Assembly: GCA_973895155.1 (NCBI GenBank)
Contig: OZ316892.1
Span: 26,993,233-27,057,232 of the forward strand
Origin: Marsupella aquatica
Lineage: Eukaryota; Plantae; Marchantiophyta
DNA: 64,000 nucleotides
Direction of reading: 5' to 3'
Shown here: in pieces, positions 1,601 through 38,264 of the stretch
Numbering within the stretch: the stretch's first letter is position 1
Layout of the letters: each line of letters opens with the position of its first letter
Notes under the pieces: model-generated
Databases searched by the model: none
What the model was told of the DNA's origin: nothing
Seen by the model: only the letters and a program-made list of their open reading frames with translations
Made by a program: the position numbers and the translations under genes

Positions 1601-1619
1601 AATATTATGAGCGCTTCAA

Positions 1620-2260
1620 AGAGGTGGAAAAGGAATGGGATTGGGGAGGGAGGGTAAAGGAGGGTGGATACATGTAATTTTTAGGGAGGGACAATGAAAA
1701 GGAGGAGGAAGGGAATGGGGCTAGGAGGGACAAGGAACGGAGGGATCCAAGAGGGAGGATACAGGTTTAGGGGGCACAAGGAAATGAGGGAGGAGGAAGG
1801 GTATGTAGATATAGTTTTAGGGAGGGTTTGGATTTAGGGAGTGAAAATAAAAAGGAGGGAGTTTAGGGTTTAGAGAAGGACAAGGAAAGGAGGGAGGGTA
1901 TTGGTTTAGAGAGGGACAAGGAAATGAGGGAGGTTTAAGGGTATAGGTTTAGGAGGGAGGAGAGAAGCTAGGTTGTATAGGTAAGAGTGGGGGACAGGGG
2001 TGGAAAGTAAGGAAAGTATAGGGTTGAAATAGAAAGCCAGGGGTTGGGACAAGGAGAGGAAGGAGGAAGGAGGGTTTAATAAGAGGGACAGACAATGAAA
2101 GAAAGGAGGAGGGAGGTGGGTACAAGTAATAAGGAGAACAGCTAGGGGGGGATTAGGAAAGCATGGAGGATAGAGGACTACAAGCAACATGAGTTTTCTT
2201 TGCATAAAGTCTACCAAAAGGTGTGGTGAGTGTGGGGTAGGGATGGGAGATATAGAAAAC
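1620..2260 (+). repeat. Purine (G/A)-rich low-complexity tract
   Basis: Degenerate GGAGGGAGG/GGACAAGGAA repeats downstream of the transposase stop. Confidence 0.7.
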
Positions 2261-2407
2261 AACATTTGAAAATGATATACTTACAAAACATAAGTTTATT
2301 GATAATTGAGAAGCACATATTTCTCCATTCTACCGAGAAGAGAAATCTTCATATCATCAAATCTAACTATATATCCGTGTAGCTATATATCCACAAACAC
2401 AGACCCC

Positions 2408-5400
2408 TCAAACTTGGTCCTCATCATCTTCAGGTTGGGACACAACCAGAATATCAGGCTTTTCCCCAACGATTGAACGAGACCGTGGCACATATGTGAT
2501 GACAAGTGACCATTCCTCTAGGTTTGGGGGGTATGGAATATAGAAACATTGTTCCACATGACTTGGAAAAGTGAACGGCTCTGATGTTTGCCAATGAGAT
2601 GGCTGGAAACTAGTGGCAGACGTCTTCAGTCGTGTAAATCCACACTCATCTTGAACCACAGTAGGATTGTTACCTGCAAGGTTCACTTTGAACCACTTGC
2701 ACTTGAAGACATACTCTTCAAACTTTGATTGTGCATCATAAGATATCACTAGAATCTCTTCTACCTTTCCATAATGTGGCACAACATCTCGAATAATATT
2801 TGTGTCATGGCGACTGCTGCGGGAATCTTGAGAGAATTGTCCTTGAACTCCACAATCAAAGGTACGACCCCTCTTCTCATCAAGGGAAGAAATCCTAAAA
2901 TCCATCAAACCATAAGGATATGTTACACAAAAATAGACACAAACATATTCCAATTAATTGAACACACCAAGAATCTGCCTCTTCAATATACGTGCTTGTA
3001 TTACAAATGAATTAAATTAAACCAAGTGATTCAAATCAAAGGTTACTAAGGTAGATGGAGATCACCTGAAATGTCTTCCTTGTGTCCACATTGTTGTCCT
3101 TGTTGTAACCACTCTCAAGGGACCATGAACAATGGTACGAACATCATCTGTGATAGCCGGAAAATGTAATACACTCTCTCCCCTGACCACCATGTCATCC
3201 ACCTCAACTAACTTCTCCTTCATATAGTCAAGGTACTTTGGAAAAATCCTTGGTCTTGTGCTGTTACTTTTGGCATCCTCATAGAAATCCCTCCATTCTT
3301 CCATGATAGTGCTGTTACTCAACATGAATGTGGTCAGTTGTTTCACCTCCACTGGTGTCAACATGCGAGTTTTCTTAGCACCTGTTAAACAATCCTCTTC
3401 ATCTTCCCTCTCCTCTACCCAAGTACGGGGAGAGGTACAATCAATTGTGGCCAATATGTTACTACAATAGAACATACTCTCAGCTGCTAAGTATCCTGTA
3501 GCCATGCTTCCCTCAACCAGTGCACGGTTACGTACATAACCTTTTAACACTGCCATGTATCGTTCTAGCCAATACATCCACCGACAATGCACAGGACCTG
3601 CAATGGCCACCTCATGAACAAGATGAACAAGTAAATGCACTTGACAGTCAAAAAAGGAAGGAGGAAGGGCCTTCTCCAACTTGCATACCACCTCTACTGC
3701 CAAAACCTCCATCCCAGGGATCTCATCAGTATATATCTCCTTACAGCATACCCATCTCAATAGTTTTCCCAATGACCAAAGGGCATCTTGCAATTCTTCA
3801 CTTGCCAAACCTATTATGGCCACAGGCAATATGTGCTGCAATAACCTATGGTAGTCATGTGTCTTGAGATACCTTGGCCACTTATGATTGTCCTCCATCC
3901 CAAAGGCCTTTCAGAGATTGGCACCATAACCAGTAGGAAACCGCATGTCTCCTATGCGATTCTGAAACTCCCTTCTCTGGCCAATAGGAAGCACCCATGG
4001 AGCTGAAGGTCGATGCTCGATCCCTGTGATAGGATCACTTATGACCCACACGTCTGGATGCATCTCAAGATCCTCACAAGCCTCCCTGAAGTTAGTGTCT
4101 TTCTCTCCATAGAAAGCCTTTATCAAAGCCTTTCCCACATTTCCCTCAATGTGCATGGGGTCTAATAGATGGCGGATCTTCAACTCACCCCAATAGGGCA
4201 AAGTGGTTAATATACTCCACCTTGTCAAGCCACTACCGTCAAATTGCATGGGATCCTTTGGGTCTGCCACTCTTGCAGCCATGTCTTTCCAGTGTGTAAA
4301 AGTTGTTGGCTCAGGTACATCACGCTCGTCACCAAAGGGCATATCAATAGAGGAAAATAGTAGTGGGTCACGCCTCATCTGATGTCCCACTGGAAGAAAC
4401 TTTGTATGCCCAAGATAAACAATCTTGCGAAGATGTGATGAATACTTGGCTACATCACCAAGGCTTGGGCCACAAGTGGAGCAAGCCTTGTAGCCTTGGG
4501 TTTGCAACCCACTCACAAAGCCAAATCCTGGTCATATAAACACACATTATGTTAGGATTAGCACATGGAAATGAGGGGATACTATGCATTAGAATATGAT
4601 GCATTTAAACAACAAAGTTCTTACCTGGGTAGTCATGCATGGTCCACATACAAACCCCTTTGAGTTTGAAAACCCGTGGGGTACCCCCTGTAGTCTTTCG
4701 ACCATCATATGCCCATACTCCTTCCCATAATATCTGGAGTTCCTGAACCAGTAATGTCAAATAGGTGTCCATGTTCTTCACCTTCTTTGGCCCTGGGATA
4801 ATCAAAGATAGCAACAAAAAACCCTTTTTCATGGACAACCATGGTGGAAGGTTGTAATTCATGAGAACCACAGGCCAGACCGATGTAGGTCTCCCCTTCC
4901 CTCCAAGTGAATGAGGGCTAACTCCATCTGATGCCAACCCCAGTCGCACATGCCGAGGGTCACGCTCAAAATCTGGCCATGTTGATTCCACATGTTTATG
5001 AGCAGGAGAGTCAACTGGTAATCGCATGACACCGGGCTCCGAACGATGTTTCTTGTGCCATACCATCAACTCGGCCAAGTCAGAACATCTATACATGTGC
5101 AACAAGCGAGGAATTATGGGGAACCAACGAACTGCTTTCCTTGGTACTTTCTGGGTTAGCATGTTTGGCTCATACCGTGGCTCATGACACACTGTGCATT
5201 CTGTGATATGGGCTGTATCCCCGTGAAATAACATGCAATCATTCACACAGGCATGAATAATATGGTAATCCATACCAATGGATGAGAGAACCTTCTTTGC
5301 ATCCTTCCAGGTCCCTGGCAACACATTCTCCGAGGGTAACATCAAGTCATGACAATATTCAAATATGTCTGATAACATAGAATTGCTTGTCTTGTGTTTG

Positions 5401-5801
5401 GCTTGAATGTTCAAGAGCCCCAATATGGCAGAAAGACGGCTCAACCGAGCACCCTCAAAAATAGGTGTTCGAGCATGTTCCTCTGCCTCTTTCCATTGTT
5501 GTTGTCCCTCTGGAGTATGTTGTGGCCGTGGGTCATTTGAAGGGCCAACCTCATGACCAATGTGAGGCACATCATCCTCAACATCGGCACCAAACCAATC
5601 AACCATGAAGTCATCCATGGCTCTATCTTGATCATGCATGACCTGGTCATCAGTCCGAGGTGCGGCTTCCTCATCAGCACCACCTACATCATTACTTGAT
5701 GAGGAATCACCCTCTGATGGTTCTCCCTCTTCTGGCATACCCATCTCCCGATATGTTGCTCTCAACCTTCGTGGTAACATTTGTTGAGATGGTTGCGCAT
5801 T
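2408..5801 (-). pseudogene. tnpD: CACTA-1 TnpD-like transposase (Transposase_21/DUF4218/DUF4216-type); predicted exons 5801-4625, 4527-3066, 2894-2408; one in-frame TGA at 3911-3913
   Basis: Motifs IHACVNDCMLF, LGLASDGVSP, YNLPPW, WTMHDYPG, LDPMHIEGNV, LKTHDYH, FFDCQVHLLVHL, WMYWLERYM, FKCKWF. GT-AG boundaries keep the frame. Confidence 0.93.
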
Positions 5802-6012
5802 CTATGCACATTACAACCAAAAAACCTCCTCATGTATATTTGACCAAGTACAACAAATTAAAATAGACTTAACACCATTCATTCAAGACATTAAGAATTA
5901 AAGTAAATGCATGGGCTAAAACCTTATTACTCCAAAATGAGCCCAAAGGCCATATATATAATAGTAAATGGGAAGTCCAAAATAGGTGCAAGAGGATAAA
6001 GGACATGATTTC

Positions 6013-6843
6013 CTAATCCCACTCATAGTGTGTGAATAACTCATCTCCTGCTCTAATGGTCCTAGTAGCAAGAACTAAGCAATGGTCCTTATGATATGTC
6101 GTGCCATATGGTGCCGGCATTGGACCATCAGTAAAAACCCACTCACAATTGGCCCTACGCTTGGGCCGAGTCCCCACAGTACTATTTATGAAACCAGCAA
6201 TATTCCCATTACGTATGGGATCACCATCTATCACCCGCTGCTCACTATACCTTCTAGTGCTACCATCAAAAGTATCCATCTCTAGAGCATATGTTTTCCA
6301 CTCAGGATGTTGTGCAAGGATCATGTTCCAATGTCTTCTCTTGTAGATGGGTCCACCGTATGGGAACAAAGTAGGACCCTCTCTACCACGAACACTTGAC
6401 CCACCCTCCTCATCCATGATGATATCCTCACAAGCAAATACTCCATATCCATGTCTCTCTCCAAGTGTGGAAGTTTTCACAATCCAACGTCTACCCCAAA
6501 CCACAATCTCCTCATCAAAATCTGTAAAATAAGGCAAGCCAAGAGTGATAGGTTCCCAATCCTTGATGATAGAGGCACACTTGCCAGTGAATGAACAAAC
6601 ACCCCACCTACCCTGAACTAGTGTTCTGGATGGGTCATTGGGTGCTCGTGGCCTCCTGTTGGATTGGGGCCTAGACCGGGGTCTTCGTGTCTCAGTGGGC
6701 ACATGAGGGTGTTCCCCTTCTGTCCCATGACTGGTACTAATTCCCAAACCCAAGGCTTGTGAAAGTGCATTGCCTATAGCATCTAAAACTCCTTGTGATG
6801 GGACATAGGGTGGTGGTGTCACCAATCTACGCATACTGGATCC
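6013..6843 (-). CDS. SET-domain protein exon (putative lysine methyltransferase) carried by CACTA-1
   Basis: Intact 273-aa ORF with SET motifs GYGVFA..DI, YGG, IDG...GNIAGFINS, ANC, LATRTIRAGDELFTHY. Acceptor AG at 6845-6844. Confidence 0.88.
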   Translation of the reverse strand, partial: GSSMRRLVTPPPYVPSQGVLDAIGNALSQALGLGISTSHGTEGEHPHVPTETRRPRSRPQSNRRPRAPNDPSRTLVQGRWGVCSFTGKCASIIKDWEPITLGLPYFTDFDEEIVVWGRRWIVKTSTLGERHGYGVFACEDIIMDEEGGSSVRGREGPTLFPYGGPIYKRRHWNMILAQHPEWKTYALEMDTFDGSTRRYSEQRVIDGDPIRNGNIAGFINSTVGTRPKRRANCEWVFTDGPMPAPYGTTYHKDHCLVLATRTIRAGDELFTHYEWD

Positions 6844-6954
6844 CTATTCCATGCAAACACCCACAAACAACCAAATGTGTAAACCATATGTGTAAACATT
6901 GATTCACCTCTAAAAATAACAGTAAAGCACGGCAATCAATTGAAACAAACTTAC

Positions 6955-7212
6955 CATATGGGATGAAGAAGCCCCGGGAGTAAGACCTCTATGATGTCCA
7001 TATCTCTCAATATGTTGAGCACACACATAAGATTTTTGAGAAATTTGGCCCACACATCTGGTGCAGTCACAAAGTCTTCGGGGTGGACCACGAGGACCAG
7101 TAACCTCGGGCTGAGGAGGAGGGGGTATATCGTTATCGGAGGAGTACTCACTACTGGATAGTTCAGAGGAAGAGGACATATCCACTGCCACATTACATTG
7201 CATGTAGGGCAT
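6955..7212 (-). CDS. First coding exon with transposase-associated CxCxxC...H zinc motif
   Basis: RLCDCTRC...CAQHIERYG matches the N-terminal motif of the other two CACTA transposases here (MYCSCMQC...QHLLKNG). Phase-0 donor ATG|GTAAGT at 6954. Confidence 0.75.
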
Positions 7213-7299
7213 GATTAGGAAAAATTAGGCCATATATAAAGCGATTTTAAAAAAAATGAACTCAAAAAACAATTAGGTTGGTTTATACATGGGGTTTTA

Positions 7300-8340
7300 T
7301 TACCCTTTTATATTTGTTAGCATGAAACCCAAATTAAGGTGAGTGTCATGCAAGAAGAAACCACATTATAACCTTTGGGAAAATTGTAATACCCTATGTC
7401 CTAAGTGAGGTTAGATTATTACCTGAATGAGACTCGGGCTCAACAGTGCCTATAGGTCACGTGGCTTTTGGAACATTTGCCAAATCTAGAAGTAGGAGGA
7501 AAATACTGGAAACAAAATGTAAGTTTGGATGGTAATTAGCAGCCGTCAAGTTGTGGAATCTTAGACATTTACCCACATATATCATAGCACAACAAAGAAG
7601 GGCAAGCATAAAAATCTGTACTAACAACATTGACTGTATACATGATGTTATACCTTTTAGATGCCCGGGTTCCCACAATGCATATGCATTAGACAAAAGT
7701 TGAGGTAGTAGTGTTGGCCCTGCGTTGTATCATGATTACATGGGTTTTCCCCTCAATTGTTAGCATAAAACCCTAAACCCTAAACCCTTATCCCCCCTCG
7801 AGTGAAAGGTGAGTGTCATGCAATAAAAACCCACCCTAGACCCCTGGGAAAACTCTAAAGGCCTAAGCCCAGAATGAAGTTGGACAATAATTACCTGAAT
7901 GAGATCCAGACTCAATAGTGCCTGTAGGTCGTGTGGCTCATTGAACATGAGCTGAATCTAGAAGCACGAGGAAAATACTGGAAACAAAAAAGTAAGTTTG
8001 GATAGCCATTAGCTTCTCTCAAGTTGTAGACCCCCAAACATGTGCATATAGATATTCTTGCACAACAAAGAAGGGCAAGGTTTATGAACAATCTCTTTAT
8101 CAAACCCTGCTAACATACATGTTTAAATATACCTTTTAGATGTCCGGGTTCCCACAATGCATATGCATTAGACAAAAGTTGAGGAAGCAGTGATGGTCCT
8201 GCACTGGATCATGATTACATGGGATTTCCCTCAATTGTTAGCATAAAAACCAAAACCTCATCCCGCTTCAAGTGAAAGGTGAGTGTCATGCAATAAAAAC
8301 CCACCATAGACCCTTGGGAACTCTAAAAGCGTAAGCCAAT
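7300..8340. repeat. ~470-bp tandem duplication (~2.2 copies) in the divergent promoter region of CACTA-1, with a telo-box (AAACCCT)x3 near 7768-7788
   Basis: GGTGAGTGTCATGCAA recurs at 7338, 7808 and 8278; blocks such as GGGTTCCCACAATGCATATGCATTAGACAAAAGTTGAGG occur twice. Confidence 0.85.
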
Positions 8341-9019
8341 GAAGTTAGCAAAAACCTAAATGGTCAATTCCCTTCAACCATCCTATGCTTCTCTCTACCA
8401 TAATTATATGCCACCCCTCTTGGTTACCCTCCTAAGATACCATAAAAGTAACCCAAGATACTATAAAACTGAAACCTCTCTTTCAAACCCTCCTAGCTCT
8501 CACCCTCCAATACATATAACCGCAACCTTCATAAATAAAACCCCCCTGCAAACCCAAAACATAAAACCCCTCGTATCTAAGCCAATCTAAGCCCAACCTT
8601 CACAAAAGAAACCCTCCCCTAACCAGGCCAAACCCCCTCCTCTTACCCTGCAATATAACTCCTTCAATTTTCTAACCCCCCCAATCCTTATCTCATCACA
8701 TCCCACTAAAATGCAACATAATCCTCTACATCTACCCCATTTAATGTTCATAAGCCCCCTTAGTATCCCTAACAACACATCAAATACGCATGCGAGACGG
8801 GGGTTATGGCAAAACCAAATAGCGAAGGCTTTTGCGAATCTTGAAGCTTCGCAAAGATAGAATTTGCGAAGCTTTTTGCGAAGGCCGATGCATCGCAAAC
8901 TGCGATGCGAAACGAATCGCAAAGCCCAATATTTTGAATCCTTATGGATTGCCGAGCGCGGACAAGGCGGATTCAGTTCATTCAGGCCTAAGGAGAGCAA
9001 CGAGGGCAAGGGCGGAGCG

Positions 9020-11112
9020 ATGGCGAGCGAAGAGGGGACTGGTGGTGATGGAGGAGCTTCTGGCAGCAGTGGAGGCAACCGAGGGGGGGGGGATCGATTG
9101 AAGGCGATTGTGGATGAGCATTTTTTGGTTGCACAGTTGAGTCAAATTGATTTCACCAGTCCAGCAGGGCTGGCATCATTGAGTGCCCTTCTGGGCCAAG
9201 CCTTGCAAGCAGGTCTCACTGCAGGGCAAGCAACAGTGGAGGAGGATGCAAGGAAGGCAGCAGAACAGGCGGCTGCTGAGAGGAAGCGAAAGAGGGAAGA
9301 GAGAGCTCAGGCTGGAGTGCTCTCGCCTCAAGCATTGGAAAAGAAGAGGAGGAAAGATGAGAGAGACCTGATCAGGAAACAGAGGGAGGAGCAAAGAAAG
9401 AAGGAGGCAGCAAGGAGGAAGCTGCCTCTGATTACTTTAGAGGATGAGGGGATTCCCACCGAGCTTGCTTACAATGGGGCCAAGAGCACAATCAGGCACA
9501 TTGTATCCACAAATTTTGCAAGAGGAGTCGAGTGGGGCACTCGCTCAAAGGCAGAGCAGAAGCGAGTCATCAATCAGGTGAAAGATGCATTTCAAAATGG
9601 AGGAGAGATGGATTCACAGTGACTTGCTGACAAAATTTCAAACTCCATGTCACAAGCTAGATACCATGATAGAATGAAGATCAGGTCTCACCTTAGAGAT
9701 TTGGAGGAGTATAGGAATTTGCAGAGGCCGCTGCAATTCTCAGAAGATATCTGGCAGGCCTTCTACCAGACAGAGGTGAAGTTGAAAGCAGCCAGGCTCC
9801 TCAATGATTTCACAGAGAAGCTGGCAAAGGCTCGAAGGGCAAAGGAGGCCGGGAAGTCTGACCGGGACCTAAAGGTGATGGAGCAGAAGGTAGCCCAGCT
9901 CCAGCAGGTTGTAGCAGAAGTAGGCGATCCACCCAACAAGTTCCTGAAGGCAGCTGAGCGAGTCCGAGACAAACCCAACATCACCCACAGGCTGGGTCAA
10001 GGTGGCCTCCCCGGCCTCAAAGCAGCATTCGTGAGTGCACCTCCCTCTCCTCCCTTGACTTCTTGCTACTCCAATTCCTATTCCAACACACCTGCAATGA
10101 GCCAACTCTTTCTTGCATTTCCACCAAGTAGTTACAATTAGACTTGTTGTGTCAGATTAGGTCACGTACAGTTGCTTCCCTCTCGGGTTTTTGCCATGAC
10201 AGAGTTTGCGATACATTTGCGATGCGGGTAGCTTCGCAAATCCTTCGCAAACCTTATTATGCCCTTTTTTTGCTTATGTTTGCGAAGGCGTTGCGAAGAC
10301 GTTCGCATCGCAACCAGCTTCGCAAACGTAATTGTCCTTATGATTGCGAAGCTGGCGCCTTCGCAAAATTTCAAAAATTTGAATTTTTAAATTTTCCGAT
10401 CGTTTAAGTGTTCTTTGAGGGTCTTCCCCATATATGCCACCCTCCATAACCCCAAAACCTTGATGCACCACCCCACCAGCCCCAACAAACCCCCTAATTT
10501 TTAGAAGCCATGTGAATCGGGTTATGGGTTGGTGTTAACCCAATTGTGCTGGTTTTGTTTTGGCTTAGTACAAGAGGTACAAGAGGAAGATTATGGCGGC
10601 TGAGATGGAGGTGGGCCAGAAACATGGGAAGGAGCATCTCTTTCAGCAAGTTGATGAATTATTGGTGAGAATTTTTAGGTTATTACATTCATTGCAATTT
10701 TGAATGAATATCTCTTTTGTTCACACTTGTAAAGAATATGAGACTAACAGACACCCTGGTTTGCTAATGGAAGCAAGGAGGGGAGGATGGTGACTCCCAT
10801 ACCGAGGGTGGCACCGATAGTAGTGATGAGGATGTGGAGGGGACAGGGGAGGGGAGCACAGCTCCTGCTACTCAAGCTAGGCCAACTAGCACTAGAGACC
10901 AGTCATTTGCATCAGCACATTCCAGTGGTGCTGGGGGTGGTAGCGCGGCAAGCCAGGGCGGTGGAGGTGGGGATGAGGATGAGGATGAGGGTGACCCCGA
11001 GGGTGACCAAGAGGAGGAGGAAGTCCAGGTTGCACCCCCCCCAAGAGCACACAAGGGCAAGGAGAAGGCCAAGGGGAAGAAGGCAAGGAGGGGCAGGAAC
11101 ACTCCTTTCTAG
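9020..11112 (+). pseudogene. CACTA-1 ORF2 / TnpA-like protein, multi-exon, divergent from the transposase; premature TGA at 9620-9622
   Basis: ORFs 8864-9622 and 9647-10141 are in the same frame across one TGA. THRLGQGG motif resembles Transposase_24-type proteins. Donor GTGAGT at 10031; acidic/basic tail 10834-11112. Confidence 0.65.
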
Positions 11113-11364
11113 CTCGATGTAGACAAGTTGTAGCTAGAGCACTTACATCGAGTTCACATGTATAGCGATCAGCATGCATGGCCGTGGCACTTTACCTAAG
11201 GGTTTTTACCCTTCCATTTTGTAACTTTTGTACTTTTTCAGTAATGCCATTTTAATTGCGGCAGACTGGGTCAACATCACTTTCCTCCCTCCTTCAAAAC
11301 CCATGAATGGTCTCCCTCACCCTCACCCTAACCCAAATACACAAAAACCCATGAAATATACATT

Positions 11365-11880
11365 TTGCGAAGCTTTTGAGAACCAACCCCCATCTCAAAG
11401 AGCCACGGTGAACGTATCGCAACCATTCCGAGGAGAAACGCATCGCAACACTTGCGATGTTGTCTAAATCACAACCCTAGCGAAGACTTACTCTCCACAC
11501 GTTTGCGAGTTAAATGCCTTCGCAACAAAGCGGTCATCCGCTTCTCGCAATCTTACGAGTTTGTTTGCATCGCAAGTTATAGAGAAATTTAACATCGGAA
11601 ATTGCGATGTAAATGTTATCGCAACGCGAGCGATTCATTTGTTCTCGCAAAATAATGAAATTTGTCATTTCTCAATATTTGCAAGGACAGTGCCGTCGCA
11701 ACGTTGCGGAGATGTTGCGACGTATTTAGAATCGCAAGTTGTGAAGTAGTTGCGAAGGGCCGTTTGCGAAGAATTTGAGATGGGAAGTAGCGAAGACGTT
11801 GCGATGCGAGTAAGTTTGCAAATTGGGTATTTTGGATTTTGTTTCCTTTGTATGATGCGAAGGGTGGTGGTTCGCAAAAG
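11365..11880. repeat. CACTA-1 right subterminal TCGCA/TGCGA array
   Basis: Same motif as 1075-1600, directly before the right TIR. Confidence 0.85.
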
Positions 11881-11900
11881 AGGTGCATAGTGTTGTAGTG

Positions 11901-18715: not shown

Positions 18716-20533
18716 ACGGCTCAAGTTTCAGTTTGCTTTGAGCTTTCGCTTGCTATTTTCTTCTGATGTAGTTTGCTGACATTTGAATAGGAGGAAGGCG
18801 ACGCTGGAAAGAAACAGTGGGAGGACGTCGTTGCCTGGCTGGACATTTGGATCGAGGTCACTGTGGAGGTCACAATTGAATCTTGGATTGAATCATTGAT
18901 TGTCATCCTAATTGTCGTGTGTGGTTCTTCACTTTGCAGCTTGCTATAGCCTGGAGGACGGCTACTCTTCAGAGAACAACAGTAACAAGTAAGTGACCAA
19001 AATGTTGAGGACTTGCGCTTTCTGCCTCCCATATGCAAGCTTCATAGAAACTGACGTCTCTACCATGATACCCTGGCTTGCTGATTGAGCTTGCTCGCTG
19101 CCTTGTTTGTATGTTTTTCTTTTGCATGTATTAGGAGGACGACAACGCTGGTTGGAGGACTATTGTTGTCGGTTGTGTAGCTGCGTCACATTGGAAGACA
19201 AGGACGGTCCGGAAGGGACGCTCGGCGAGGGCGGAGGCGAGGGTAGAAGAGCGTTACATCTAGTACCAGGTTTGAATCTAGCTCCTTGTCCAGGTTGCAA
19301 TTGCAAGTTTCCTAGACAACCAAGTCCACATTGTCTGTGTGCTTGCATTGCCTACTCGCATTGAAAAGAGCTAGTCTAGAATGTTACGTAGCTATTTCTT
19401 TTGTAGTAGTAGCCAAGCAGAATCCACAGAAGAGGCTTCCAATGTAGTATGCGACGGTCTGTACACATTGTTGTTGTGCTGCATTCATAATCGTTGCTCG
19501 GACCTGGGTTTGGTCAGGTCTCGCAGAAGTTTTGGTCAGGTCCTGGCTGCGGAATTTTTCTGCATCTTGCTTCTATTGAACTATCAAACTGAGGATTTTG
19601 TGTCTTGCATAGGATCTTCCTGATCTATGGAGCTCGTTTTGCTTGCCTCTTATCGGAAGCAATTGGGATTGAATGCCTTGTATTCCCTTCCCGGTTGTTG
19701 CTTTTGAACTTTGGCCAATAGGCTTCTTTGTGGTAGGCCGCCTTGAAATTGCCTTGAAATTGGGCGGTTGAAAAGCTTTGAAGGAGGTGGAGCGACTGTG
19801 GCCTTTTCCAGTGTTGTTACTACCAAATTTCCACTGCGAGGTATGTATGTGGTAATTAATTGATGTCGATAGCAAATAATTTAGTCTTGTTTGCTGTTAA
19901 GTAGGTTGAGTTCACTTCAGTTTACTAGACAGACAAACCCTCAGAGTTAAGCAAATACTTAAGTTTGAGGAAGCTTGTTGGTAGTATGACTGTGAACAAT
20001 GTCATAGCGCAGGTCAACATTATTGTCTGCAAGGGCTTCATTCTGAATTTTCTGCTCCACTGTTGTCTTTGTAGGGCGAGGCGAGTTCACTTACTAGTGG
20101 TGGGTCTCGGATCGTGTTGTTTAGGGCTGTATTCTATATTGGTGTTGTGCAGAAAATAGCATACTTCATGTGTGGATCTCCCTTCTTTTCAATTAATTAT
20201 GGTCTGGTGTATGTACTATAGATGAAGTTGTGTAGTATTATAATTCAACTGTTTGACTGATTTGAATGTACAGAGACAGGACAGTGGACCATCTAGGGGA
20301 ATGGACACTTGTTTCATGGATATGCATTTTTACTCTCATTTTTACTACGCTGGTGAGTCGCTGATATGTTTTAATTATGCACTATGGAATGTGCAGATTC
20401 ACACAATCTTGGGTGGTGACCAGGAGTTCGGGTTCTCATTCGACTACAGAAGTTGTGGGGAGCCTAGGATCCAAGTAAGCTCCACTTTGTTGCAGAGGAC
20501 AACAGGGCCTTTAGCTTTAGGGTTGACTATGCC

Positions 20534-20959
20534 ATGGGTCGTAGATATGAGTCTGCACCAAAGGTTTTGCCCTGTTCAATTTCGAAGCCAATTTTTGAGG
20601 GTGTGAATGCCTTCTTAGTTCCAAATGAATTTTCAAGAGCTCATTTTGAAGTTTTCCATAGAAAGCTAATTGAACGTCATGGTCAGCTTTGCACTGTTGC
20701 TTCCAGCAACACCACTCACATTGTTGCTGGTTCTTGGAGAGCAGTCATGTCCGAGTGGACATGGTCTGGTGTTAATTCCCTCATTCAAGAGCAGGCATTG
20801 AAAGTTGTCTAATTTGAATGGATGTGCGAATCCCTCAAAGAAGGAGTCCTACCGGAAGAAGGCCCTTTCAACTTAATGTTGACTGAGGTAGAGTCTGAGG
20901 TAGATTGTGCTAAGAGAAAAGTAGAACAGATTGAACAGGATAAGGCAGGTTCAGTTTGA
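20534..20959 (+). pseudogene. Single BRCT-domain protein; TAA at 20810-20812
   Basis: IFEGVNAFL...TTHIVAG...LKVV*FEWMCESL. Homologous to the first BRCT of ORF 52556-53419. Confidence 0.8.
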
Positions 20960-21289: not shown

Positions 21290-21727
21290 ATGGTTGTGAC
21301 ATGCAGTGCATTGTCTGAGTACCATCAACAGAAGGGTGAGCGATTCCATGTGAAGATGATTCACAATGGGGTCGTGCCTACTGACTATGCTGTGACGTGG
21401 GGCTATCCAAGTCTGCCTTGCAACCATTATAGGAGGCTGAATACATCCCCACTAGTCCCAAACAGTATCCGTCTAGTTAAACGGACACTTGGGGTGTTGG
21501 ATGAGGACTGTGTCTTCCTGGAGGCTTGTCTCCATTGTCACACCCAGACATGTGATCGTTGTAGGGGAGGTCACTCAAACATAGTGCAGACTTTTGCACA
21601 GTACATGGCAAGAATGGCATGGGGCCGTTGCCTAGCATGGAATACTTGTCATTTCATCAATGATTGTGTCTGTGATGGGACACGTCCAGGTTCTGCCCGT
21701 GATGATGATGCACATTCAAGTTGTTGA
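21290..21727 (+). CDS. ~145-aa Cys/His-rich protein of unknown family (copy A)
   Basis: Open ORF; aligns with 37818-38264 and 55353-55802 (ACLHCHTQTCDRC). Confidence 0.72.
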   Translation: MVVTCSALSEYHQQKGERFHVKMIHNGVVPTDYAVTWGYPSLPCNHYRRLNTSPLVPNSIRLVKRTLGVLDEDCVFLEACLHCHTQTCDRCRGGHSNIVQTFAQYMARMAWGRCLAWNTCHFINDCVCDGTRPGSARDDDAHSSC

Positions 21728-21894: not shown

Positions 21895-22590
21895 ATGGCA
21901 CACATCGCTCGTCAGTTGCTGGATCCAAGATTTGGGCATAGGGAGCACCTTTGTATGGATCCCCCTTGTTGTTTTGAATGTGACGAGGGAGGAACTGTTT
22001 TGTTCTGTGATGGCCCTTGTGGTCGCCATTTTCATTATATAGTTGATGGCCACAACCCTGATGAAGAAGATGGCCATGGACCTACATGTCAGCGCATTGT
22101 CATTTCCAGAGGTCATGATTGGGCTGCAGCTTGGCTCTGTGATCTCAGTCAGCAAAACAGAGGAAGATGTTTTGGTTGTGGGCTCCTTGGCAGAACCTTG
22201 AGACCCAGCACAGATGAGCCCCTTGTGGTCCAGTGTTCTCATGATGATTGCTACTCATTTTACCATGTGGGTTGCCTCCGGACACTTCTGCGATTGGGGG
22301 AAATGCCATTCACCCGCCATCGAGATAACCCTGATGCACATCCCGATGCTTTTATATGCCCACGACATTACTGTGAGGTCTGTAAGGAGTATCGGGAGGG
22401 CATTTGGGACTTTGTCCAATGTTGTAGATGCCCTCGTGCATGGTGTCGTGATGAAGGACCAACAGCAGACAGACACTTGAGGAGAGGGGTGAGGGGCCGA
22501 GACACCTGGGACATTGGATAGTGGCACATGATTTATTGTAATCGCCATGTCATTCTAGAGGGTTCTGATATCCCTAGTACCCATGACTAG
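21895..22590 (+). pseudogene. EDM2/NSD-type multi-PHD finger protein (copy A); TAG at 22519-22521 near the C-terminus
   Basis: CFECDEGG...CDGPCGRHFH; CFGCGLLG...QCSHDDCYSFYHVGCL; FICPRHYCEVC...QCCRCPRAW; IYCNRH after the stop. Confidence 0.85.
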
Positions 22591-22912: not shown

Positions 22913-25900
22913 ATGGCACACCTAGGCATGAGCTCTGTCAGATTGGTAGAAAAGGGTGAGGAGGGAGGAAAGCCTGATATGCCAATCTGTGTCATGTCCT
23001 TCAAAGAAGGGCAGACTCTGGCAGATTTTTGTCTAAAATGTGTTGGTGCAGTAGAGTTTGACTTTGATTTTGGGGATGAGAGGTTGTCTGGTCGAGTCCG
23101 GCGCTTTTTAGAGAAGACTGTTGGGGTGACTGAACTTCAAGGGACAATTTACGTGATTGCAGAGTTACCCTCAATTGCCTTGCCTGCGGAGAGGGTCACT
23201 ATTGGTTCCTCTCATTCATCTGCTGCCATTGTGTCCAATGTGGCAGGCACGACTCTATTGTCTCAAGGACAAACACAAGGGGTGCCAGTACAGGCTATTG
23301 TACAGCCTGTCACGGGCTCCTTTGAGTCTCACCTCATATCTGAGGCTGCATCAAAGGCTTGGAATGATGAGTGGGTGGAGCTACAATCCTGGGTAAACCA
23401 GAAGGGCTTTGGTGAGCACAAGTGGAAAGTGCGGACGTGGGATGAGGGAGGGGAGTGTCAAGGTCATCTAGAATGCTTAGAGTGTAGGGAGACTTATGGG
23501 AATGCAGCCACTTCACAGGTGCTCAAGTCCATTGCAAATTGCTTTAGCAACTTCAAGACAAAGCACCTGACCAACCCTAAACACAAGGAGAACTGGTGTA
23601 AGCGAAGGGGTTTAGCTGGAGCTTTGGTGACGGCTGCTGACACTATACAGCAACCACTGTTTGATCATAGTATGCAAATAGGGGCTGGTGTGGAAATAGT
23701 GGGAAAGTTGAATGCAGAGGTAGGTGGGGTGGTAGAAGTGTTCTCTATCACACCATCTCCCACTGATCCAACATTTGCACAGAGGTCATTCCTGTCTAAG
23801 GTGAGATGTACAGTCTGTGGTGAGCTACATACTGACATGTGCCTTAAGAAATCCAATTTGGAACACAATTTAAGGCAACATCTTGTCAGTCGGGATCATA
23901 TGGATGCACTTGAGAACGTCGTCACCAGTACCCAGGCTGCACTGAGGGCAAGGAAGAAGGGGAGACCAAGGAAGCCTGATGCTCGTGATCTGTTTCCATC
24001 TCAAAATTCTATTATGAATTTCTTTAGAGAGGACAACTCTGCTGCAAGGAGCAGTTCAGGCAGAGGTGGGTTGTATTCCTCCATTGAGCCAAGTTTAAGT
24101 TTGCTTTGTTGGGGCTATGGGAGTCAGAGGTCAAGTGGACAGGGGATTCTATGGCTGTGAAGGGCATACTTGATGATCAAGAGGGAGGGAATGTCTGGGA
24201 CTGTGACCGTACCACCCGTGCTGAGGTTTTCAATATAACTAGCCAATTAGTTGTTGGTATACAGGATTGTTTTAGGCACAAGCAATGTCACAGGGTGTCC
24301 ATTAATGGAGGTGGTTTTCAAAACCTCACTTGCACTCTATGTGATTCTATAAAACGTGAAGATGATTTTCGTGGCAGGGTGCACAGGGAAGCGAAAGCAT
24401 TAGTGCAGAGAGGAGACAGGACTACACAGGGTGGGATGAGGTTGGCATACTTGACCAAAACCGAACTGAGGGAATAGGTTGGTAACCTCAACACTCGCTT
24501 TAGGAAACAGCGTTGGCTGTTGGCACAACAGGCTCAGAAAATTTGTGCCTTGAGTGTTAGGCGAAAGAAGCTAGAAGATTTATTAGGAGTAGCCCATGAT
24601 AGGAAAGATTTAAGACTGTTTCTGAGAAATATTGTGAATGGACATAGGCATGGTGCTTTTGGTGGCAAGGAAGGGTTGTGGGATTTCCTGACAGATGTAG
24701 CTAAGAACTTGCAGAGAGTTGCTAAGGGTTATCAATACAGTAAGAGAACCAAGGCCTTTTCCCAAGCCATGTTCTAGTTTGGAGGTAGACAAGTGGCTCA
24801 TTGTTTCCAGGAAGATCTAGGTGGTCCAGGTCTGAAGACCTTAAAATGTGATAGAGCAAAACTACCACCCTTTAGAGCTGGCATTCAAAAAGAGATATTC
24901 CAGGAGGTGTGCAGAGTACTATGTGCATCAAAGCAGTCACTTGGAATTTCAGGAGATGTACCAGTAATGTTTGCTGAGGATGAAACAAGGATAAAAGAGA
25001 GACCCAGGTTTGTGTTTTTGTCTCTATAGTAAATTAGCTTGTTCTTTTCAATGTGTTGGATGAGTTTGCACGTCATGAGCTGATGTCTGTATTGTATTGT
25101 GTGTAACAGATGGGAAGCTAAATATGACACCCTCATTGGTTTCTGTGGCCCCTTAGAGGAGCACACATGTTCTTTTGGCTTGGAAGTATTGGTTGGAGTA
25201 GGTACTGAAGGGTATGACAAGATTGTAAGTACTTTTGAGCAGTATGCCAAAGACATGTATGCTAGAGTAATCATTGTCAATCTTGAGCTGCATGCAAAGA
25301 TGCCTAAATTGGCATTGTGTGTTGTACCAACATGTAACAAGTTTAAAGCTCCCTGGGTAAGAGAGCATTGGGTGCAGCTAAAGTCCATGTGGGACACACA
25401 TTGTAGAGACAGTGTTGGTCCTTTGTTGGGCCATGCTAGTGATGGTGATGCTCATCGTAGGAAATTGATGATGGAAGATTATACTGCTATGAATGTTTCC
25501 TTTCCTAGGTACAGTGTAGGATGGGTTGGGTGGCAATACTCAGTGTCCATACTTTCGAATGGAGATTTATATGGTTTTGGAGACCAAGACCCACCTCACA
25601 ATGGCAAAAAGGCAATTAACCCATTAGACCGAGTGTTTGCTATGTTAGTCCTTGGTGATCAGCATGCATCTTTGTCAAATGTCACATCTGTTTATAACCA
25701 CTATGCAATTCATGAGCATGGTTTGCATTGGGATGATGTGAATAGGACAGATAGACAAAATTGGGCTGGCCCACAACGAATAGCTTCCAGGAGAGTGCAA
25801 GCCTGCCTGCAGCATATGTATGAGCAATGAGATGTTTGTCATGACAGAAGCTTTGGGACCATGATATACTTGGAGGTTTGTGCAGACTACATGGATATTT

Positions 25901-27513
25901 TCTTCTCTGTTAAGTATGACCTAAGAACCCGTGTTGTCTTGGCATCAAAGGTATCTTGGTTCTTCCGATTGTGGAGGCTATGGTTGAGGTATGGTGATCA
26001 TTCTGTGATAGGGAATGTTGGATCTATCACAGAGAAGAACGTGATTTTTGTGTAGGCTTTCCATGATATCAACATGTCTTGTCATTTTGTAGTATTGTTA
26101 ATCTGTGCCTTTTGGGACAAGTTCCCATATCTGCAAGTTCCATTTCACTTGCTGGGATCAGATTGTTGTGAGATATTTTTCAGCAAGGTAGGTGGCATGA
26201 GTGGCCATGAGAGAAATGATGACTTTGGATCTCTACTGGATAGTGCATAGTGCAGTGAGACTGAATCGACTAGCTGGATTAGAGTATGGACCAGAGGGAT
26301 TGAAGATACGTCGATCACATGATAAACAAGATCATGTTTGGGCAACTTTACATCCTCTGGATGAAGGAGAACAAGCTCCAAATTTATTTGATTACTCTGC
26401 AGTTCAGACTAATGATCTGGTTGTTGATGCTCTAAAGGAAGGTTTGGGGGAAGCAAAGGATTTGTTGTGCAAGTTGAACATGTCACCAAGGAGTTCTTTG
26501 CCAGCAGCGAAAAGACGATGGTGGGTTCATCCTTGGGAGGTGGAGGCAGAGACTTGGCCAGATACAAGTGTCATGAAAGAGGCTGTGTTATGTGATGATG
26601 CTGAAGACATAGTTGAGCATCGACCTACTGTAGGCCCTAGACCTGAGCCCCCAATTAGAGAGTTTCTAGAGTTTGATGATCCTGAAGAAGATCTCAATCG
26701 GATTGATTCATGGGACACTCTGGACAGTCATGATTGTATTGAGCCATTAACAGTTGATGATTGTGAGATTGAGGTGGACACTGACCCATTTTGTGAGATG
26801 GAAACACTAGGACATGAAGTAAGGCATGTCTTGGCTGGAGTTCAAGCAGACTTAACTGATGTACAGACACCCCGGTCAGTGGTGTCTACTGTAACTTATG
26901 AGGGAAGGACTATCTACAAGTCCACTCTTGTTAGTCAATTGTGCTGCAATCCTTTCATGTCAAAGGATCTAGGCTAACTAGGATAGCCCAGAAGACCTAT
27001 TACACTACTGGTAAGGAGAAGAAAAATGGTGACTCTGTGACTTGTTTGGTTGACATTGGTACTGATATAGCAGTTTTGTTTGAGTCTGCTGCAGAGGTTG
27101 GTCCTTCTACCAAATTATCCAAGTCAAAGAAGAGGAAGGGAAGAGATAAGGCGTCTACTGTTGTCAAGGCACTATCTGCAAAGAAGGAATATTGGTTGGG
27201 TAGGATTGAGTTTATGATACAGAAGAATGGCTCCCATTGGGTCAGACGTCAAAAAGCAATAGATCTGTTGGACAGGCCTGTACCTGCAGTTGGATAGAGT
27301 GGAAGTGTGTGCCGCTTGCAATGTAATTGGTACAAATCTATTGGTAACAACAAAACTTTGTTCACTTATGATGCAATGGATGGACAATGGATTGATATTG
27401 AGATGGTAATTTCAAATGTGAACTTGACTATGAAGTCTGGGGTAGTTGACAGAGTATGTACTAGATCCAAATGACTTGCAGGCTTTGACCACATACATTC
27501 AGAGTGTGAGTAA
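22913..27513 (+). pseudogene. P-element/THAP9-like DDE transposase with N-terminal C2H2-type fingers and AT-hook; several stops and frameshifts; intron 25008-25109
   Basis: Ordered motifs FAEDETRI (24970-24993), HASDG (~25432-25446), DPPHNGKKAINPL (from 25588), DRQN (25750), GSDCCEIFFSKVG (from 26155) match the P-superfamily pattern FDE / SD(G) / DxxHxxKxxRN / QDxxExxF. Confidence 0.75.
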
Positions 27514-29588
27514 ATTATGATATATACTTGACTATTGTTTATTGTAAGTAGTTTATTGTGTGTGTATGTGATGCATGTTTAGGGTTAGTGGGAGGGAGTA
27601 GAGTAGGGGATGGCGGATTGGAAAATTGAGATTTATGCTCAATCAGGGGTTCAATTCCCCTCCATCATGTGAACATCATCATGTTGGGAGCTTGTGAAGC
27701 AAGGTAGAGAACCAATGCCTTGAATAGGTAACCTATGGTGTTTGGTTACCTATTCATGGTATCTGGCACCCACCATGCTTCACTATTCAAGAGTGAGAAT
27801 TACAAGTTGTTAGATGATCGTGAATGCAATTTACAAGATATTCAGCTTCATAATCGAACTGCATCGAATGTATTGGAAATGCATATCAATTTACACAATT
27901 GGCTCTACACTATTGAGGTACTTTACTTTCCTTAATAGGCATTTTTTTAATCATCATAAACTTTACATAAAGTTTTATAGGGGTAAACAATTCAAAAAAT
28001 GGCCGCTTTTCAGAAAGTAAGGGAGTGATGAAAAAAAATTCACTTAAAAGTTAGGGGGTCCAGACCCTAAAACGTCGCACGTGATGTAGAGCCCTACATA
28101 CAGTGACCCCTCCGAGTATGGAATGCCCAAAATTGTTACATGATCACAATGAAAGAATATATTTGAGAAAAAATCTCAATACAAGTCAAACTAAAAATAA
28201 AATATTTTACAAATTGCAGGAAAATTCATGAAAAAATAATAAGAAATGCCCAAAATTGTTACATGGTCACAACAAAAAAACATCTTTTCATATGATGATC
28301 ATTTATGATGAGAGAAGCTTACGAGGTTATGCCCCTAGAGGTTGACCGGCACGAGTGTTTTGACACATGGGTGAGAAACAAACGTGAAATTACCGCCATT
28401 TGAGCTAGGCTAGCATGGACCGATATTACGGCCCTACGTCGCAACTGTAAACGGCAATAGACATTCACCTACTTCATAAAGATTGCAACAGAAGAACGCA
28501 TAGCTGAATGAAGGTTGCGTTTTAGAAAGCTCATTACCGGAACGAGAAAGTCTATAATGGCGGTAAGAAGCTCGGTTTTGGATTGGATGAATTCAGAATG
28601 ACGCACAGTTGAATAAAGATTACGATTTCTGGATGTGATTACGAGCATATATTAAAAAGCTCATTGGCGGGACAACAAAATGTATAATGGCGGTCAGAAG
28701 CTTGATGGTGAGTTGACGATTTTAGAGAACTATGTGCAAACAATCGCAATGGGGAATAGACCATTTTCTGCGCCATAGGGCGCCACTTTAAAGAATCTCA
28801 AGCCGTTGGTGGAATCCACAAGATTGCAGAATTTCATCTCCCTCACCTTTCCGAATGAAGGCACTTCTTCTGTCATTCACCAGCTCAACACTAGTAGAAA
28901 ATGGGGCCTTTTATGACTATGACACATATGACTTATGTGCTCAAATGACAAAATATGTAAATGACATAACATAAATGACATTGAAATGACTATCCAAAAT
29001 GACGGGGTGCAAAAAATGACTAATACTTACAATAGTGTCATTTAAACCAATGAGCCAAATGACTTTGACTGCTATAATGACAATAATCATGAGTTGTAGT
29101 CATTTTGGAAAGTCTTTGTGAATGACACAATTAACAAAAACTGTCATATCAGTGTTTCACATATGGGAAGTCATTTCAGACGACAGTGACTAATGACTAA
29201 TAAATCAAATATTAGTGTTTAAAAATGTTAGTAGTCATTTAAACCAAAAGTGATAAATGACATGATAAACAACATATGACTATTTTGAGGTTTATGGTTT
29301 GTATATATTTTAGGGTTTAGGGTATGATTAGTCATTCAAAATGTATGGTAGTATATATAAAGACTAGTGGCACTCACATATTAGATTTGAAATACATTTA
29401 GAGACCTAACAAGCCTTCTTTTGTTGTGAGTCACATCATTAAATTGATGTACAACTTAAAGGCTTGATAATCTCTAATAAGTATGTACATTTATATATAC
29501 TTGCACCCATTTATTACATCTTTCCTATATATGCCAAGGACTCCTGAAGTGTTTACATTCCTTAAGATGTATTCACATTTCACATGTT

Positions 29589-36856: not shown

Positions 36857-37486
36857 ATGGCACGGGCTGCTGCTGCCTGGCTGGATCCAAAGTTTGCCCA
36901 TAAAGAGCACCTTCGCATGGATCCCCCTTGTTGTTTTGAATGTGATGAGGGAGGTACTGTGTTGTTCTATGATGGGCCTTGCAGTCGTCATTTCCATTAC
37001 TTAGTTGATGGGCAGAATCCCGAGGAGCCTGATGGCCATGGGCCTGAGTGCACACGCATTGCCATTGCTTGTGGGCTGCTTGGCCGAATTTTGAATCCCA
37101 CTACAGATGAGCCCCTTATGGTCCAGTGTGCACAGGATGACTGCTATTCCTTTTATCATGTGGGTTGTCTACGGACTATACTGAAGGCGAGGGAGTTGCC
37201 TCTGATAGGGTACCCAGAGAACCCAATTGCACATCCCGCTGCTCTGATATGCCCAAGGCATTATTGTGATGTTTGCAAGGAGTATCGGGATGGCATCTGG
37301 GAATTTATCCAGTGCCGTAGGTGCCCTCGTGCATGGTGCAGGGATGAGGGACCAGAGGCAGACAAACACCTGAAGAGAGGGGTGAAGGGTAGAGAAATGT
37401 GGGATATTGGTCCATGGCGTATGGTGTACTGCAATCGCCATGTCATTCCAGAGGGTTCTGATGTGCCACCTCATGATTTCAAATAG
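36857..37486 (+). CDS. EDM2/NSD-type multi-PHD finger protein (copy B) with a 23-aa in-frame deletion relative to copy A
   Basis: Open 209-aa ORF, closely similar to 21895-22590; lacks SRGHDWAAAWLCDLSQQNRGRCF. Confidence 0.85.
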   Translation: MARAAAAWLDPKFAHKEHLRMDPPCCFECDEGGTVLFYDGPCSRHFHYLVDGQNPEEPDGHGPECTRIAIACGLLGRILNPTTDEPLMVQCAQDDCYSFYHVGCLRTILKARELPLIGYPENPIAHPAALICPRHYCDVCKEYRDGIWEFIQCRRCPRAWCRDEGPEADKHLKRGVKGREMWDIGPWRMVYCNRHVIPEGSDVPPHDFK

Positions 37487-37817: not shown

Positions 37818-38264
37818 ATGCCAAGAACACTCAGCAGCTTGGAAGCTGACCTTGAAGGCAGAGCTGAGAGGCTACGCCTGAAGCTGAGTGGAATGAGGTT
37901 GGTCCCTGGCAGCTTTGCTGTGAAATGGGAGTTTTTGCCTGTACAGAGAGACACGCACAGTCAGCCCATTACTCTAGATGCTCCACCCTTGCCCATAGGT
38001 TTTTGTATTGTGGCAGTCAAAAATGGAGTGGTACAACCAGAGCAGATATGCTACTCTGCCTGTATCCACAGTTGTGAGGATTTTTGCCCAAAATGTCAAG
38101 TGCGCCCAGGGGATATATATAGGCGGGATGGACATAGTAGAGTGCAGAGGAGGTGTGCCTGTATAATGTTTCACCATGATGAGCCGGTCTTGGGACCAGG
38201 AGTTGAGACTGTTTGCCCAAGAGTAGAGCAGCACTTAGTGGAGAAAGACCAGTATCAATTCTGA
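37818..38264 (+). CDS. ~148-aa Cys/His-rich protein of unknown family (copy B)
   Basis: MPRT...RAERLRL...ACIHSCEDFCPKC...RRCACIMFHH; homologous to copies A and C. Confidence 0.75.
   Translation: MPRTLSSLEADLEGRAERLRLKLSGMRLVPGSFAVKWEFLPVQRDTHSQPITLDAPPLPIGFCIVAVKNGVVQPEQICYSACIHSCEDFCPKCQVRPGDIYRRDGHSRVQRRCACIMFHHDEPVLGPGVETVCPRVEQHLVEKDQYQF

What the first reader, a model, noticed from the sequence alone, without database searches (positions are those of the whole stretch)
21290..21727. Unrecognised ~150-aa metal-binding protein family, present three times and always next to the PHD gene
Seen: copies at 21290(+), 37818(+) and 55802(-) share M.(R/V)T...(K/R)(A/G)E.(L/F)(R/H)(L/V), a (V/L)P...A..(W/F).(Y/F) motif, a Pro-rich linker, (A/G)C(L/I/V)H-x5-6-CxxC and a downstream R..C. 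All three frames are open even though the neighbouring transposases are decayed. I cannot assign a known domain. Inference: a dedicated partner of the PHD reader, such as a DNA-binding or adaptor subunit analogous to VANC.
Basis: partly seen in the sequence, partly recalled or inferred. Interest (0 to 1): 0.75.

Follow-up and report, generated by a model that had tools for sequence, protein, structure and literature searches.

The report
Transposon zinc protein with nucleosome-anchor motif
Three different jumping genes in this plant-type genome each carry a small protein of no named family beside a histone-reader-type gene; it is predicted to bind zinc and likely grips nucleosomes with a virus-like tip, which would help these elements escape part of the host's silencing.

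Summary
The family is real. The three ORFs are homologous, and 18 unnamed public proteins join them. All 21 keep C-x-H-x5-C-x2-C; most start M-[VP]-x-T-R-S. None has a Pfam match below E 0.035; AlphaFold2 gives a compact domain, pLDDT 79.6. Each copy lies 167-669 bp from an NSD-type PHD gene in a DNA transposon, two CACTA and one unclassified; a fourth, complete CACTA element has neither gene. It is not a strictly co-inherited PHD partner: PHD-A and PHD-B are 73% identical, their neighbours 25%, in swapped order. The open frames are expected by chance (P 0.6 each). Two leads are new. The N-terminus has the register of the cytomegalovirus IE1 acidic-patch anchor (M-x-T-R-S; PMC9040877). The three carrier elements keep CHG sites better than the two non-carriers while losing CG equally (only 3 versus 2 elements). 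Best reading: a modular transposon chromatin accessory, likely a nucleosome tether serving anti-silencing. Binding and function are untested.

The parts
21290..21727 (+). Family X copy A (145 aa); C80-H82-C88-C91; motif Arg5 is Cys (codon TGC) in this copy
   Evidence: nearest relative P0008 (55% identity) keeps the Arg
37818..38264 (+). Family X copy B (148 aa); motif position 5 is Leu; acceptor-like AG 2 nt before the ATG
   Evidence: nearest relative P0007 (55%) keeps the Arg
55353..55802 (-). Family X copy C (149 aa); intact M-V-x-T-R start; C78-H80-C86-C89; the modelled copy
21895..22590 (+). NSD-type multi-PHD gene A; premature TAG at 22519
   Evidence: PF22908 E 2.6e-9; read-through
36857..37486 (+). 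NSD-type multi-PHD gene B; 73% identical to A, with a 23-residue gap and one Cys replaced by Tyr
54003..54683 (-). NSD-type multi-PHD gene C
   Evidence: PF23004 E 9.7e-6; Atlas first hit 0.93, PHD_NSD cluster, commonest phylum Streptophyta
20468..20959 (+). BRCT-domain frame upstream of copy A, broken by TAA at 20810
   Evidence: PF00533 E 0.002 when read with X at the stop
52556..53404 (-). Tandem-BRCT gene in element 3
   Evidence: PF00533 E 6.8e-14
51846..52379 (-). Weak F-box-like ORF in element 3
   Evidence: PF00646 E 0.1 only
22913..27510 (+). Element 1: broken, unclassified DDE-type transposase-like gene (SDGD, DxxHxxK, DxQN and SDxCExFFS motifs; likeness to P-element transposases is recalled, not shown by a call)
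   Evidence: frames; no transposase Pfam or PDB hit
39257..43042 (+). Element 2: CACTA/EnSpm Tnp2 transposase, broken by stops
   Evidence: PF02992, PF13963, PF13960, PF13952; stops
48035..51204 (-). Element 3: CACTA/EnSpm Tnp2 transposase, broken by a stop; TnpA-like frames follow at 46939-44476
   Evidence: PF13960; PF03004 E 0.014; frames
28889..28900 (+). CACTA terminus (left end of element 2)
43706..43717 (+). CACTA terminus with the same 12 bases (inferred 3' end of element 3, which interrupts element 2)
1053..11900 (-). Control: complete CACTA element (CAT target-site duplication) with Tnp2 and a SET gene but no X and no PHD

Best explanation
The three ORFs encode one small accessory protein family of plant-type DNA transposons that is predicted to fold around a single zinc site, likely tethers to nucleosomes through an N-terminal arginine-anchor motif, and would act alongside the neighbouring PHD reader to keep the elements out of CHG/H3K9me2 heterochromatin. 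Shown: homology, an invariant C-x-H-x5-C-x2-C, a conserved M-[VP]-x-T-R-S start, residence beside an NSD-type PHD gene in three transposons with two kinds of transposase, discordant X and PHD histories, and weaker CHG loss in the carriers. Predicted: the alpha/beta fold. Inferred: zinc binding, acidic-patch binding by Arg5, and an anti-silencing outcome caused by this cassette. X and PHD look like separately exchanged modules of a shared toolkit (with BRCT in 2 of 3 elements), not a fixed heterodimer. Rough odds by step: transposon accessory protein 0.9; acts on chromatin 0.65; nucleosome anchor 0.4.
For: Four ligand-type residues are invariant in 21 of 21 rows at about 20-55% identity. T4 is kept in 18 of 21, R5 in 17, S6 in 11, V or P at position 2 in 18, and K/R15 in 20. 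The motif is not a search artefact: 8 of 10 distant hits stay at E < 0.001 without the first 8 columns. Only 2 of 347 Met-started frames in the window have M-x2-3-T-R, one being copy C. IE1 binds the acidic patch with M483 in a hydrophobic pocket, T485, anchor R486 and S487, the same -3/-1/0/+1 register (PMC9040877, passages); Arg and Ser are enriched in such motifs (PMC10606924, passages). The neighbours are chromatin-type domains. At synonymous sites the carriers keep CWG 335:355 against 90:212 in non-carriers (odds ratio 2.2; control sites 1.01; Tnp2 genes only 2.1, control 0.96). All three carriers rank above both non-carriers in both codon tests, while CpG is depleted in all five. CHG maintenance is tied to H3K9me2, which the plant 2.5-PHD protein EDM2 binds (PMC7529245, passages).
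Against: The motif is four residues, and acidic-patch motifs are variable in sequence (PMC10606924), so the match may be coincidental or a localisation or phosphorylation signal. Two of the three window copies (A and B) lack Arg5. The CHG comparison rests on 3 versus 2 elements; perfect ranking arises by chance 1 time in 10, and much of the pooled effect comes from the LTR retrotransposon. In the second codon test element 0 (0.46) is close to element 1 (0.55). The GWC control is also low in element 0 (0.74), the right flank with no visible cassette has CWG 0.85, and the 408-bp array inside element 2 has 0.27. The signal cannot separate X from PHD, BRCT or TnpA. All carrier copies here have broken genes, so any protection is incomplete.
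Confidence: 0.4

Rival explanations
1. X steers or assists transposition: a chromatin tether for target-site choice or nuclear retention of the transpososome, like MURB or TnpA-type cofactors, with no anti-silencing role of its own.
For: It lies in transposons in all three cases seen. Viral arginine anchors serve tethering and integration-site selection (PMC9040877, passages). Accessory proteins bind transposases in MULE, CACTA and Harbinger (PMC12973397, passages).
Against: It accompanies two unrelated transposase types and is missing from a complete CACTA element. This reading does not explain the CHG pattern.
Confidence: 0.2
2. X is a dedicated subunit of the PHD protein, possibly binding it through an N-terminus that mimics the histone H3 tail (likeness to the H3 tail is recalled).
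For: Adjacent in 3 of 3 carriers, both absent in the fourth DNA transposon. The motif sits at the very start of the inferred protein.
Against: PHD-A and PHD-B are 73% identical but X-A and X-B only 25%, with swapped order; X falls into three separate subfamilies. No conserved fusion: 1 of 5 candidate donors gives an in-frame joint, cutting before the zinc motif.
Confidence: 0.15
3. X is a VANC-like sequence-specific DNA-binding anti-silencing factor that recognises repeats in its own element.
For: A basic N-terminal helix, a zinc motif, short motif clusters near the PHD genes (GGACY 4 in 321 bp, 6 in 332 bp and 4 in 598 bp against about 1.5 per kb per strand) and the CHG pattern. VANC acts through arrayed motifs (PMC5735166, passages).
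Against: No VANC- or PMD-type Pfam hit in 21 of 21 rows. VANC derives from MAIN-like proteins and is dicot-specific (PMC13547354, passages). X is only about 150 aa. The motif clusters are short and may be terminators or relics.
Confidence: 0.15
4. X is passively carried cargo captured from a host gene, with no role for the element.
For: The open frames need no selection (P 0.6). CACTA elements capture host pieces (established knowledge); an rpL18a retrocopy lies at 59961.
Against: No named host family matches. The three copies belong to three old subfamilies that keep the same core, which implies long purifying selection and repeated retention in transposons.
Confidence: 0.1

Closest known systems
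VANC anti-silencing proteins of Arabidopsis VANDAL (MuDR) transposons (PMC5735166, PMC13547354; passages read)
   Same: Extra ORF inside a plant DNA transposon; carriers show a signature compatible with reduced non-CG methylation.
   Different: No sequence or Pfam link. VANC is MAIN/PMD-derived, dicot-specific and binds DNA motifs. X is a 150-aa Cys/His protein in CACTA and an unclassified element, beside a PHD gene.
Viral acidic-patch tethers: HCMV IE1 CTD, KSHV LANA, foamy virus Gag (PMC9040877; passages read)
   Same: Short terminal motif with a hydrophobic residue at -3, Thr at -1, Arg, and Ser at +1, as in IE1 M483-x-T485-R486-S487.
   Different: No homology beyond four positions; the motif is N-terminal on a small folded domain; binding is untested.
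Transposon-borne chromatin cargo exchanged between superfamilies: TET/JBP in fungi, SET in HarbingerS and MuDR (PMC12730594; abstract and passages read)
   Same: The same accessory gene sits in different transposase lineages, with signs of exchange between them.
   Different: Those cargos are enzymes of known fold. X has no catalytic signature and no named family.
EDM2 and NSD-type composite PHD readers (PF22908, PF23011, PF23004; PMC7529245 passages read)
   Same: The neighbouring gene carries this type of PHD array.
   Different: This concerns the neighbour, not X (hhalign probability 0.1%). The PHD genes are stand-alone, and their mark specificity is unknown.

Membership tests
Any Pfam-A family | Match at or above the gathering score | tested here: not met
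   0 of 21 rows reach a cut-off; best E 0.035, and each family is hit by one row only
VANC | MAIN/PMD-related domain | tested here: not met
   No such Pfam hit at E <= 1 in 21 of 21 rows; X is about 150 aa
VANC | Encoded by VANDAL/MuDR elements | tested here: not met
   Two carriers are CACTA Tnp2 elements; the third has no MuDR Pfam hit
VANC | Sequence-specific DNA binding and hypomethylation in trans | not testable with these tools
   Only an indirect CHG-retention signature
PHD finger | C4-H-C3 cross-brace with eight ligands | tested here: not met
   Only four invariant ligands; no profile match to the neighbouring PHDs
Acidic-patch arginine-anchor binders (IE1 type) | Hydrophobic-x-T-R-S register in an exposed terminal segment | tested here: met
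   T4 18 of 21, R5 17 of 21, S6 11 of 21; lies before helix 5-25 in the model; register from PMC9040877
Acidic-patch arginine-anchor binders (IE1 type) | Physical binding to H2A E61/D90/E92 | not testable with these tools
   Needs a binding assay or a structure
Zinc-binding domain | Four conserved Cys/His ligands | tested here: met
   C-x-H-x5-C-x2-C in 21 of 21
Zinc-binding domain | Tetrahedral geometry and bound metal | not tested
Known solved folds | Significant structural match | tested here: inconclusive
   See Tried and rejected
CACTA/EnSpm (elements 2 and 3) | Tnp2 transposase and CACTA terminus | tested here: met
CACTA/EnSpm (elements 2 and 3) | Paired TIRs with a 3-bp target-site duplication | tested here: inconclusive
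   One clear end each; the candidate at 59500-59511 has 2 mismatches and no matching duplication
P-element superfamily (element 1) | P-type transposase profile, TIRs, 7-8 bp duplication | tested here: inconclusive
   Motif likeness is recalled; no Pfam or PDB hit; the left end is cut by the LTR element

The most novel reading that the evidence does not exclude
Plant DNA transposons of unrelated superfamilies share and swap a chromatin toolkit in which a zinc protein of undescribed family docks on the nucleosome acidic patch with a herpesvirus-style arginine anchor while an EDM2-like PHD reads H3K9 methylation, keeping the elements CG-methylated but largely free of CHG heterochromatin: an anti-silencing system independent of VANC.
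Probability: 0.25. Interest if true: 0.8.

Novelty: new variant of a known kind. Interest (0 to 1): 0.58.

Why it matters
Few transposon anti-silencing proteins are known in plants: PMC12973397 (passages) names VANDAL proteins and a rice CACTA microRNA as the cases. A second, unrelated protein system shared across transposase types would widen that picture. It gives direct tests: a four-residue motif to mutate, a zinc site, and a CG-kept, CHG-spared signature that can be checked genome-wide. Acidic-patch docking is established for viruses; one search found no paper on it for a transposon-encoded plant protein. If the mechanism is wrong, what remains is an unnamed, old transposon protein family with a confidently predicted domain.

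Tried and rejected
Fold searches gave no clear match. Foldseek on PDB: 0 hits at E <= 0.001 with either model (best E 0.58 with the better model). BFVD: 0 (best E 0.19). VIA-align wide: 0 of 48,161 chains at Z >= 5; best Z 3.6, rmsd 4.4, 91 aligned. This does not show that the fold is new, and AlphaFold DB was not available. PDB sequence search with the 21-row profile: best E 0.61 to T4 gp32, set aside as a CxxC chance match. ESM Atlas: no usable hit for copy C. Complex job (X residues 1-120 with an H2A/H2B pair from a giant-virus contig, L001, as stand-in): no answer; my alignment was not used and the partner fold was uncertain. X with PHD was not folded. No RNA holder listed. Context for relatives: two metagenome scans (0 of 61 and 0 of 99 stretches) and one viral scan (0 of 41) found nothing; a prokaryote scan gave 2 of 91 stretches, both rejected by the family profile (best E 0.47). 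Longer fused forms: none among 7997 candidates of 351-2000 aa, weak evidence; lengths between 350 aa and shorter pieces under 72 aa were not all covered. No whole genome is held. Summed contig depth peaks over copy C in three of four runs, but depth cannot rank genes and was not used. 'Open frames prove selection' was rejected. 'X is an exon of the PHD gene' was rejected as unsupported. Paper searches listed no description of this family or cassette; Repbase Reports and subscription papers are not searched, and no supplements were opened. Earlier scan notes: nothing by sequence or place; the 8 notes concern other systems and were not used.

Full report
Observation. Pairwise identity is 25-30%. 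A profile from 10 distant library proteins alone finds these three frames and no fourth among 2096 segments of the window. I call the family X.

The family. A word-indexed search gave 3 relatives. An exhaustive profile search of 1.84 billion representatives gave 17 at E <= 0.001, two of which were in the query. The final alignment holds 3 window and 18 library rows. For the 18 library proteins looked up, the sources are Logan, JGI/IMG, ENA and NCBI; the only name is 'hypothetical protein' and no accession was shown. All 21 rows have C-x-H-x5-C-x2-C; P58 is kept in 20, W114 in 19 and N115 in 17. No row reaches a Pfam cut-off. AlphaFold2 with 21 rows gives pLDDT 79.6, pTM 0.75: helix 5-25, strands 33-38, 60-65 and 72-78, the ligand loop, helix 99-116, and a variable tail; with 6 rows it gave 57.5. 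Zinc binding is inferred from the ligand pattern. The fold searches are told under Tried and rejected. In the tree the three window copies fall into three separately supported groups, each 55-58% identical to a library protein, so the family is old and these are not recent duplicates.

The N-terminus. Most rows start M-[VP]-x-T-R-S, 73-81 residues before the first Cys where the motif is found: T4 in 18 of 21, R5 in 17, S6 in 11. Removing the first 8 columns leaves 8 of 10 distant hits significant, so the search did not select for it. Background in the window is 2 of 347 Met-started frames. HCMV IE1 binds the nucleosome acidic patch through M483, T485, anchor R486 and S487 (PMC9040877, passages), the same register. 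A structural survey finds such motifs variable but enriched in Arg and Ser (PMC10606924, passages). This is a lead, not a test. Copies A (the given coordinates) and B have Cys and Leu at position 5, while their nearest relatives keep Arg. I infer decay in these copies; it also counts against the motif being essential.

Setting. The window is nested transposon DNA of plant type (Tnp2 families; the PHD's nearest Atlas cluster is mostly Streptophyta). An LTR retrotransposon has LTRs at 1-357 and 18362-18715 and contains a complete CACTA element at 1053-11900 with a CAT duplication, Tnp2 and a SET gene, but neither X nor PHD. Element 1 reads BRCT, X, PHD, then an unclassified DDE-like gene. Element 2 starts at a CACTA terminus at 28889 and reads PHD, X, Tnp2. 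Element 3 lies on the minus strand and reads X, PHD, BRCT, weak F-box, Tnp2, TnpA-like, ending at 43706. Contigs of 4 runs from 3 studies cover 30 of 30 bins of 43000-60000 and 25-30 of 30 bins of 18700-29500, with 207 to 14,293 contigs laid per run at mixed identity, as expected of multi-copy families; one run may be the window's own source. Acceptor-like AGs precede several ATGs, so I infer separate genes reached by splicing from a shared leader.

Partner or module? X and PHD co-occur in 3 of 3 carriers and are both absent from the fourth DNA transposon. But PHD-A and PHD-B are 73% identical (about 80% in DNA, dS 0.94, dN 0.16), whereas X-A and X-B are 25% identical and in swapped order; the other PHD pairs are 37% and 32%. 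One of the two genes was therefore exchanged between elements without the other, here between a CACTA and a non-CACTA element. That fits separately mobile modules, as described for TET/JBP genes among fungal transposons (PMC12730594, abstract and passages), better than a co-evolving pair. It does not exclude binding. The open frames carry no weight: P = 0.60 per frame at element 1's stop density. PHD-A and BRCT-A are themselves broken.

A methylation footprint. CpG is depleted in all five elements (0.30-0.44 for the four DNA elements, 0.32 for gag-pol). CWG, corrected for dinucleotides, is 0.60 in element 0 and 0.56 in gag-pol, against 0.83, 0.79 and 0.89 in the carriers; in Tnp2 genes alone 0.64 against 0.94 and 0.92. 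At synonymous positions the carriers keep CWG 335:355 against 90:212 (odds ratio 2.2; control sites 1061:790 against 647:486, ratio 1.01; Tnp2 only 2.1, control 0.96). Per element, test 1 gives 0.62, 0.76, 0.92 against 0.32, 0.18; test 2 gives 0.55, 0.82, 0.58 against 0.46, 0.19. Sites are not independent: the real comparison is 3 elements against 2, and perfect ranking has chance 1 in 10. Against: the GWC control is low in element 0 (0.74), the right flank is at 0.85 without a visible cassette, and the 408-bp array in element 2 is at 0.27. CHG maintenance is linked to H3K9me2, and EDM2, with 2.5 atypical PHDs, binds that mark and affects CHG (PMC7529245, passages). The footprint fits escape from CHG heterochromatin but cannot say which gene is responsible.

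Mechanism. Best reading (0.4): X is a zinc-stabilised accessory domain whose N-terminal Arg docks on the acidic patch; with the PHD reader it helps hold the element in a transcribable state with little CHG methylation. Rivals are a transposition or targeting tether (0.2), a dedicated PHD subunit (0.15), a VANC-like DNA binder (0.15) and passive cargo (0.1).

Comparison and novelty. It may work like VANC (PMC5735166, passages) but is not a member: no related Pfam domain, other host elements, and VANC is MAIN-derived and dicot-specific (PMC13547354, passages). PHD fingers in transposons are known as part of Rehavkus transposases (PMC6446971, passages). Ten paper searches listed no account of this family or cassette; Repbase and subscription journals were not searched and may hold these ORFs. 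Verdict: a real, unnamed transposon protein family, a new variant of a known kind of system, with a testable but unproven chromatin mechanism. Interest 0.58.

Noticed in passing
window 18716-59400 versus 1053-11900 and 12160-18715: The X/PHD carriers are CG-depleted but only weakly CHG-depleted; the SET-bearing CACTA element and the LTR element are depleted in both.
   Followed up: yes
window 22913-27510: Unclassified transposase-like gene with P-element-like motifs (recalled) and no Pfam or PDB hit; it shares a 73%-identical PHD gene with a CACTA element.
   Followed up: partly
window 1053-11900: Complete CACTA element with a CAT duplication, a stand-alone SET gene (6013-6834) and an opposite-strand gene at 8888-10141, nested in the LTR retrotransposon.
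   Followed up: partly
window 28889 and 43706: Elements 2 and 3 share the same 12 terminal bases although their DUF4218 regions are only 50% identical; element 3 appears to interrupt element 2.
   Followed up: partly
window 30508-33841: 8.2 copies of a 408-bp tandem unit with an internal imperfect palindrome, inside element 2.
   Followed up: no
window 29716-30108: A 393-bp MITE-like inverted-repeat structure inside element 2.
   Followed up: no
window 22590-22910, 37486-37817, 53405-54002: Small GGACY clusters downstream of each PHD gene on its coding strand (4, 6 and 4 copies; the third lies beyond PHD-C).
   Followed up: partly
window 21883, 36838, 37816, 54685: Splice-acceptor-like AG just upstream of several cargo ATGs, suggesting one leader spliced to several ORFs.
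   Followed up: partly
window 59961-60326: Intronless ribosomal protein L18a copy (PF01775), probably a retrocopy.
   Followed up: no
L001 2862-4062: Giant-virus contig with adjacent H2A-like and H2B-like genes beside a thymidine-kinase-like and an ATPase-like ORF (labels from my reading).
   Followed up: no
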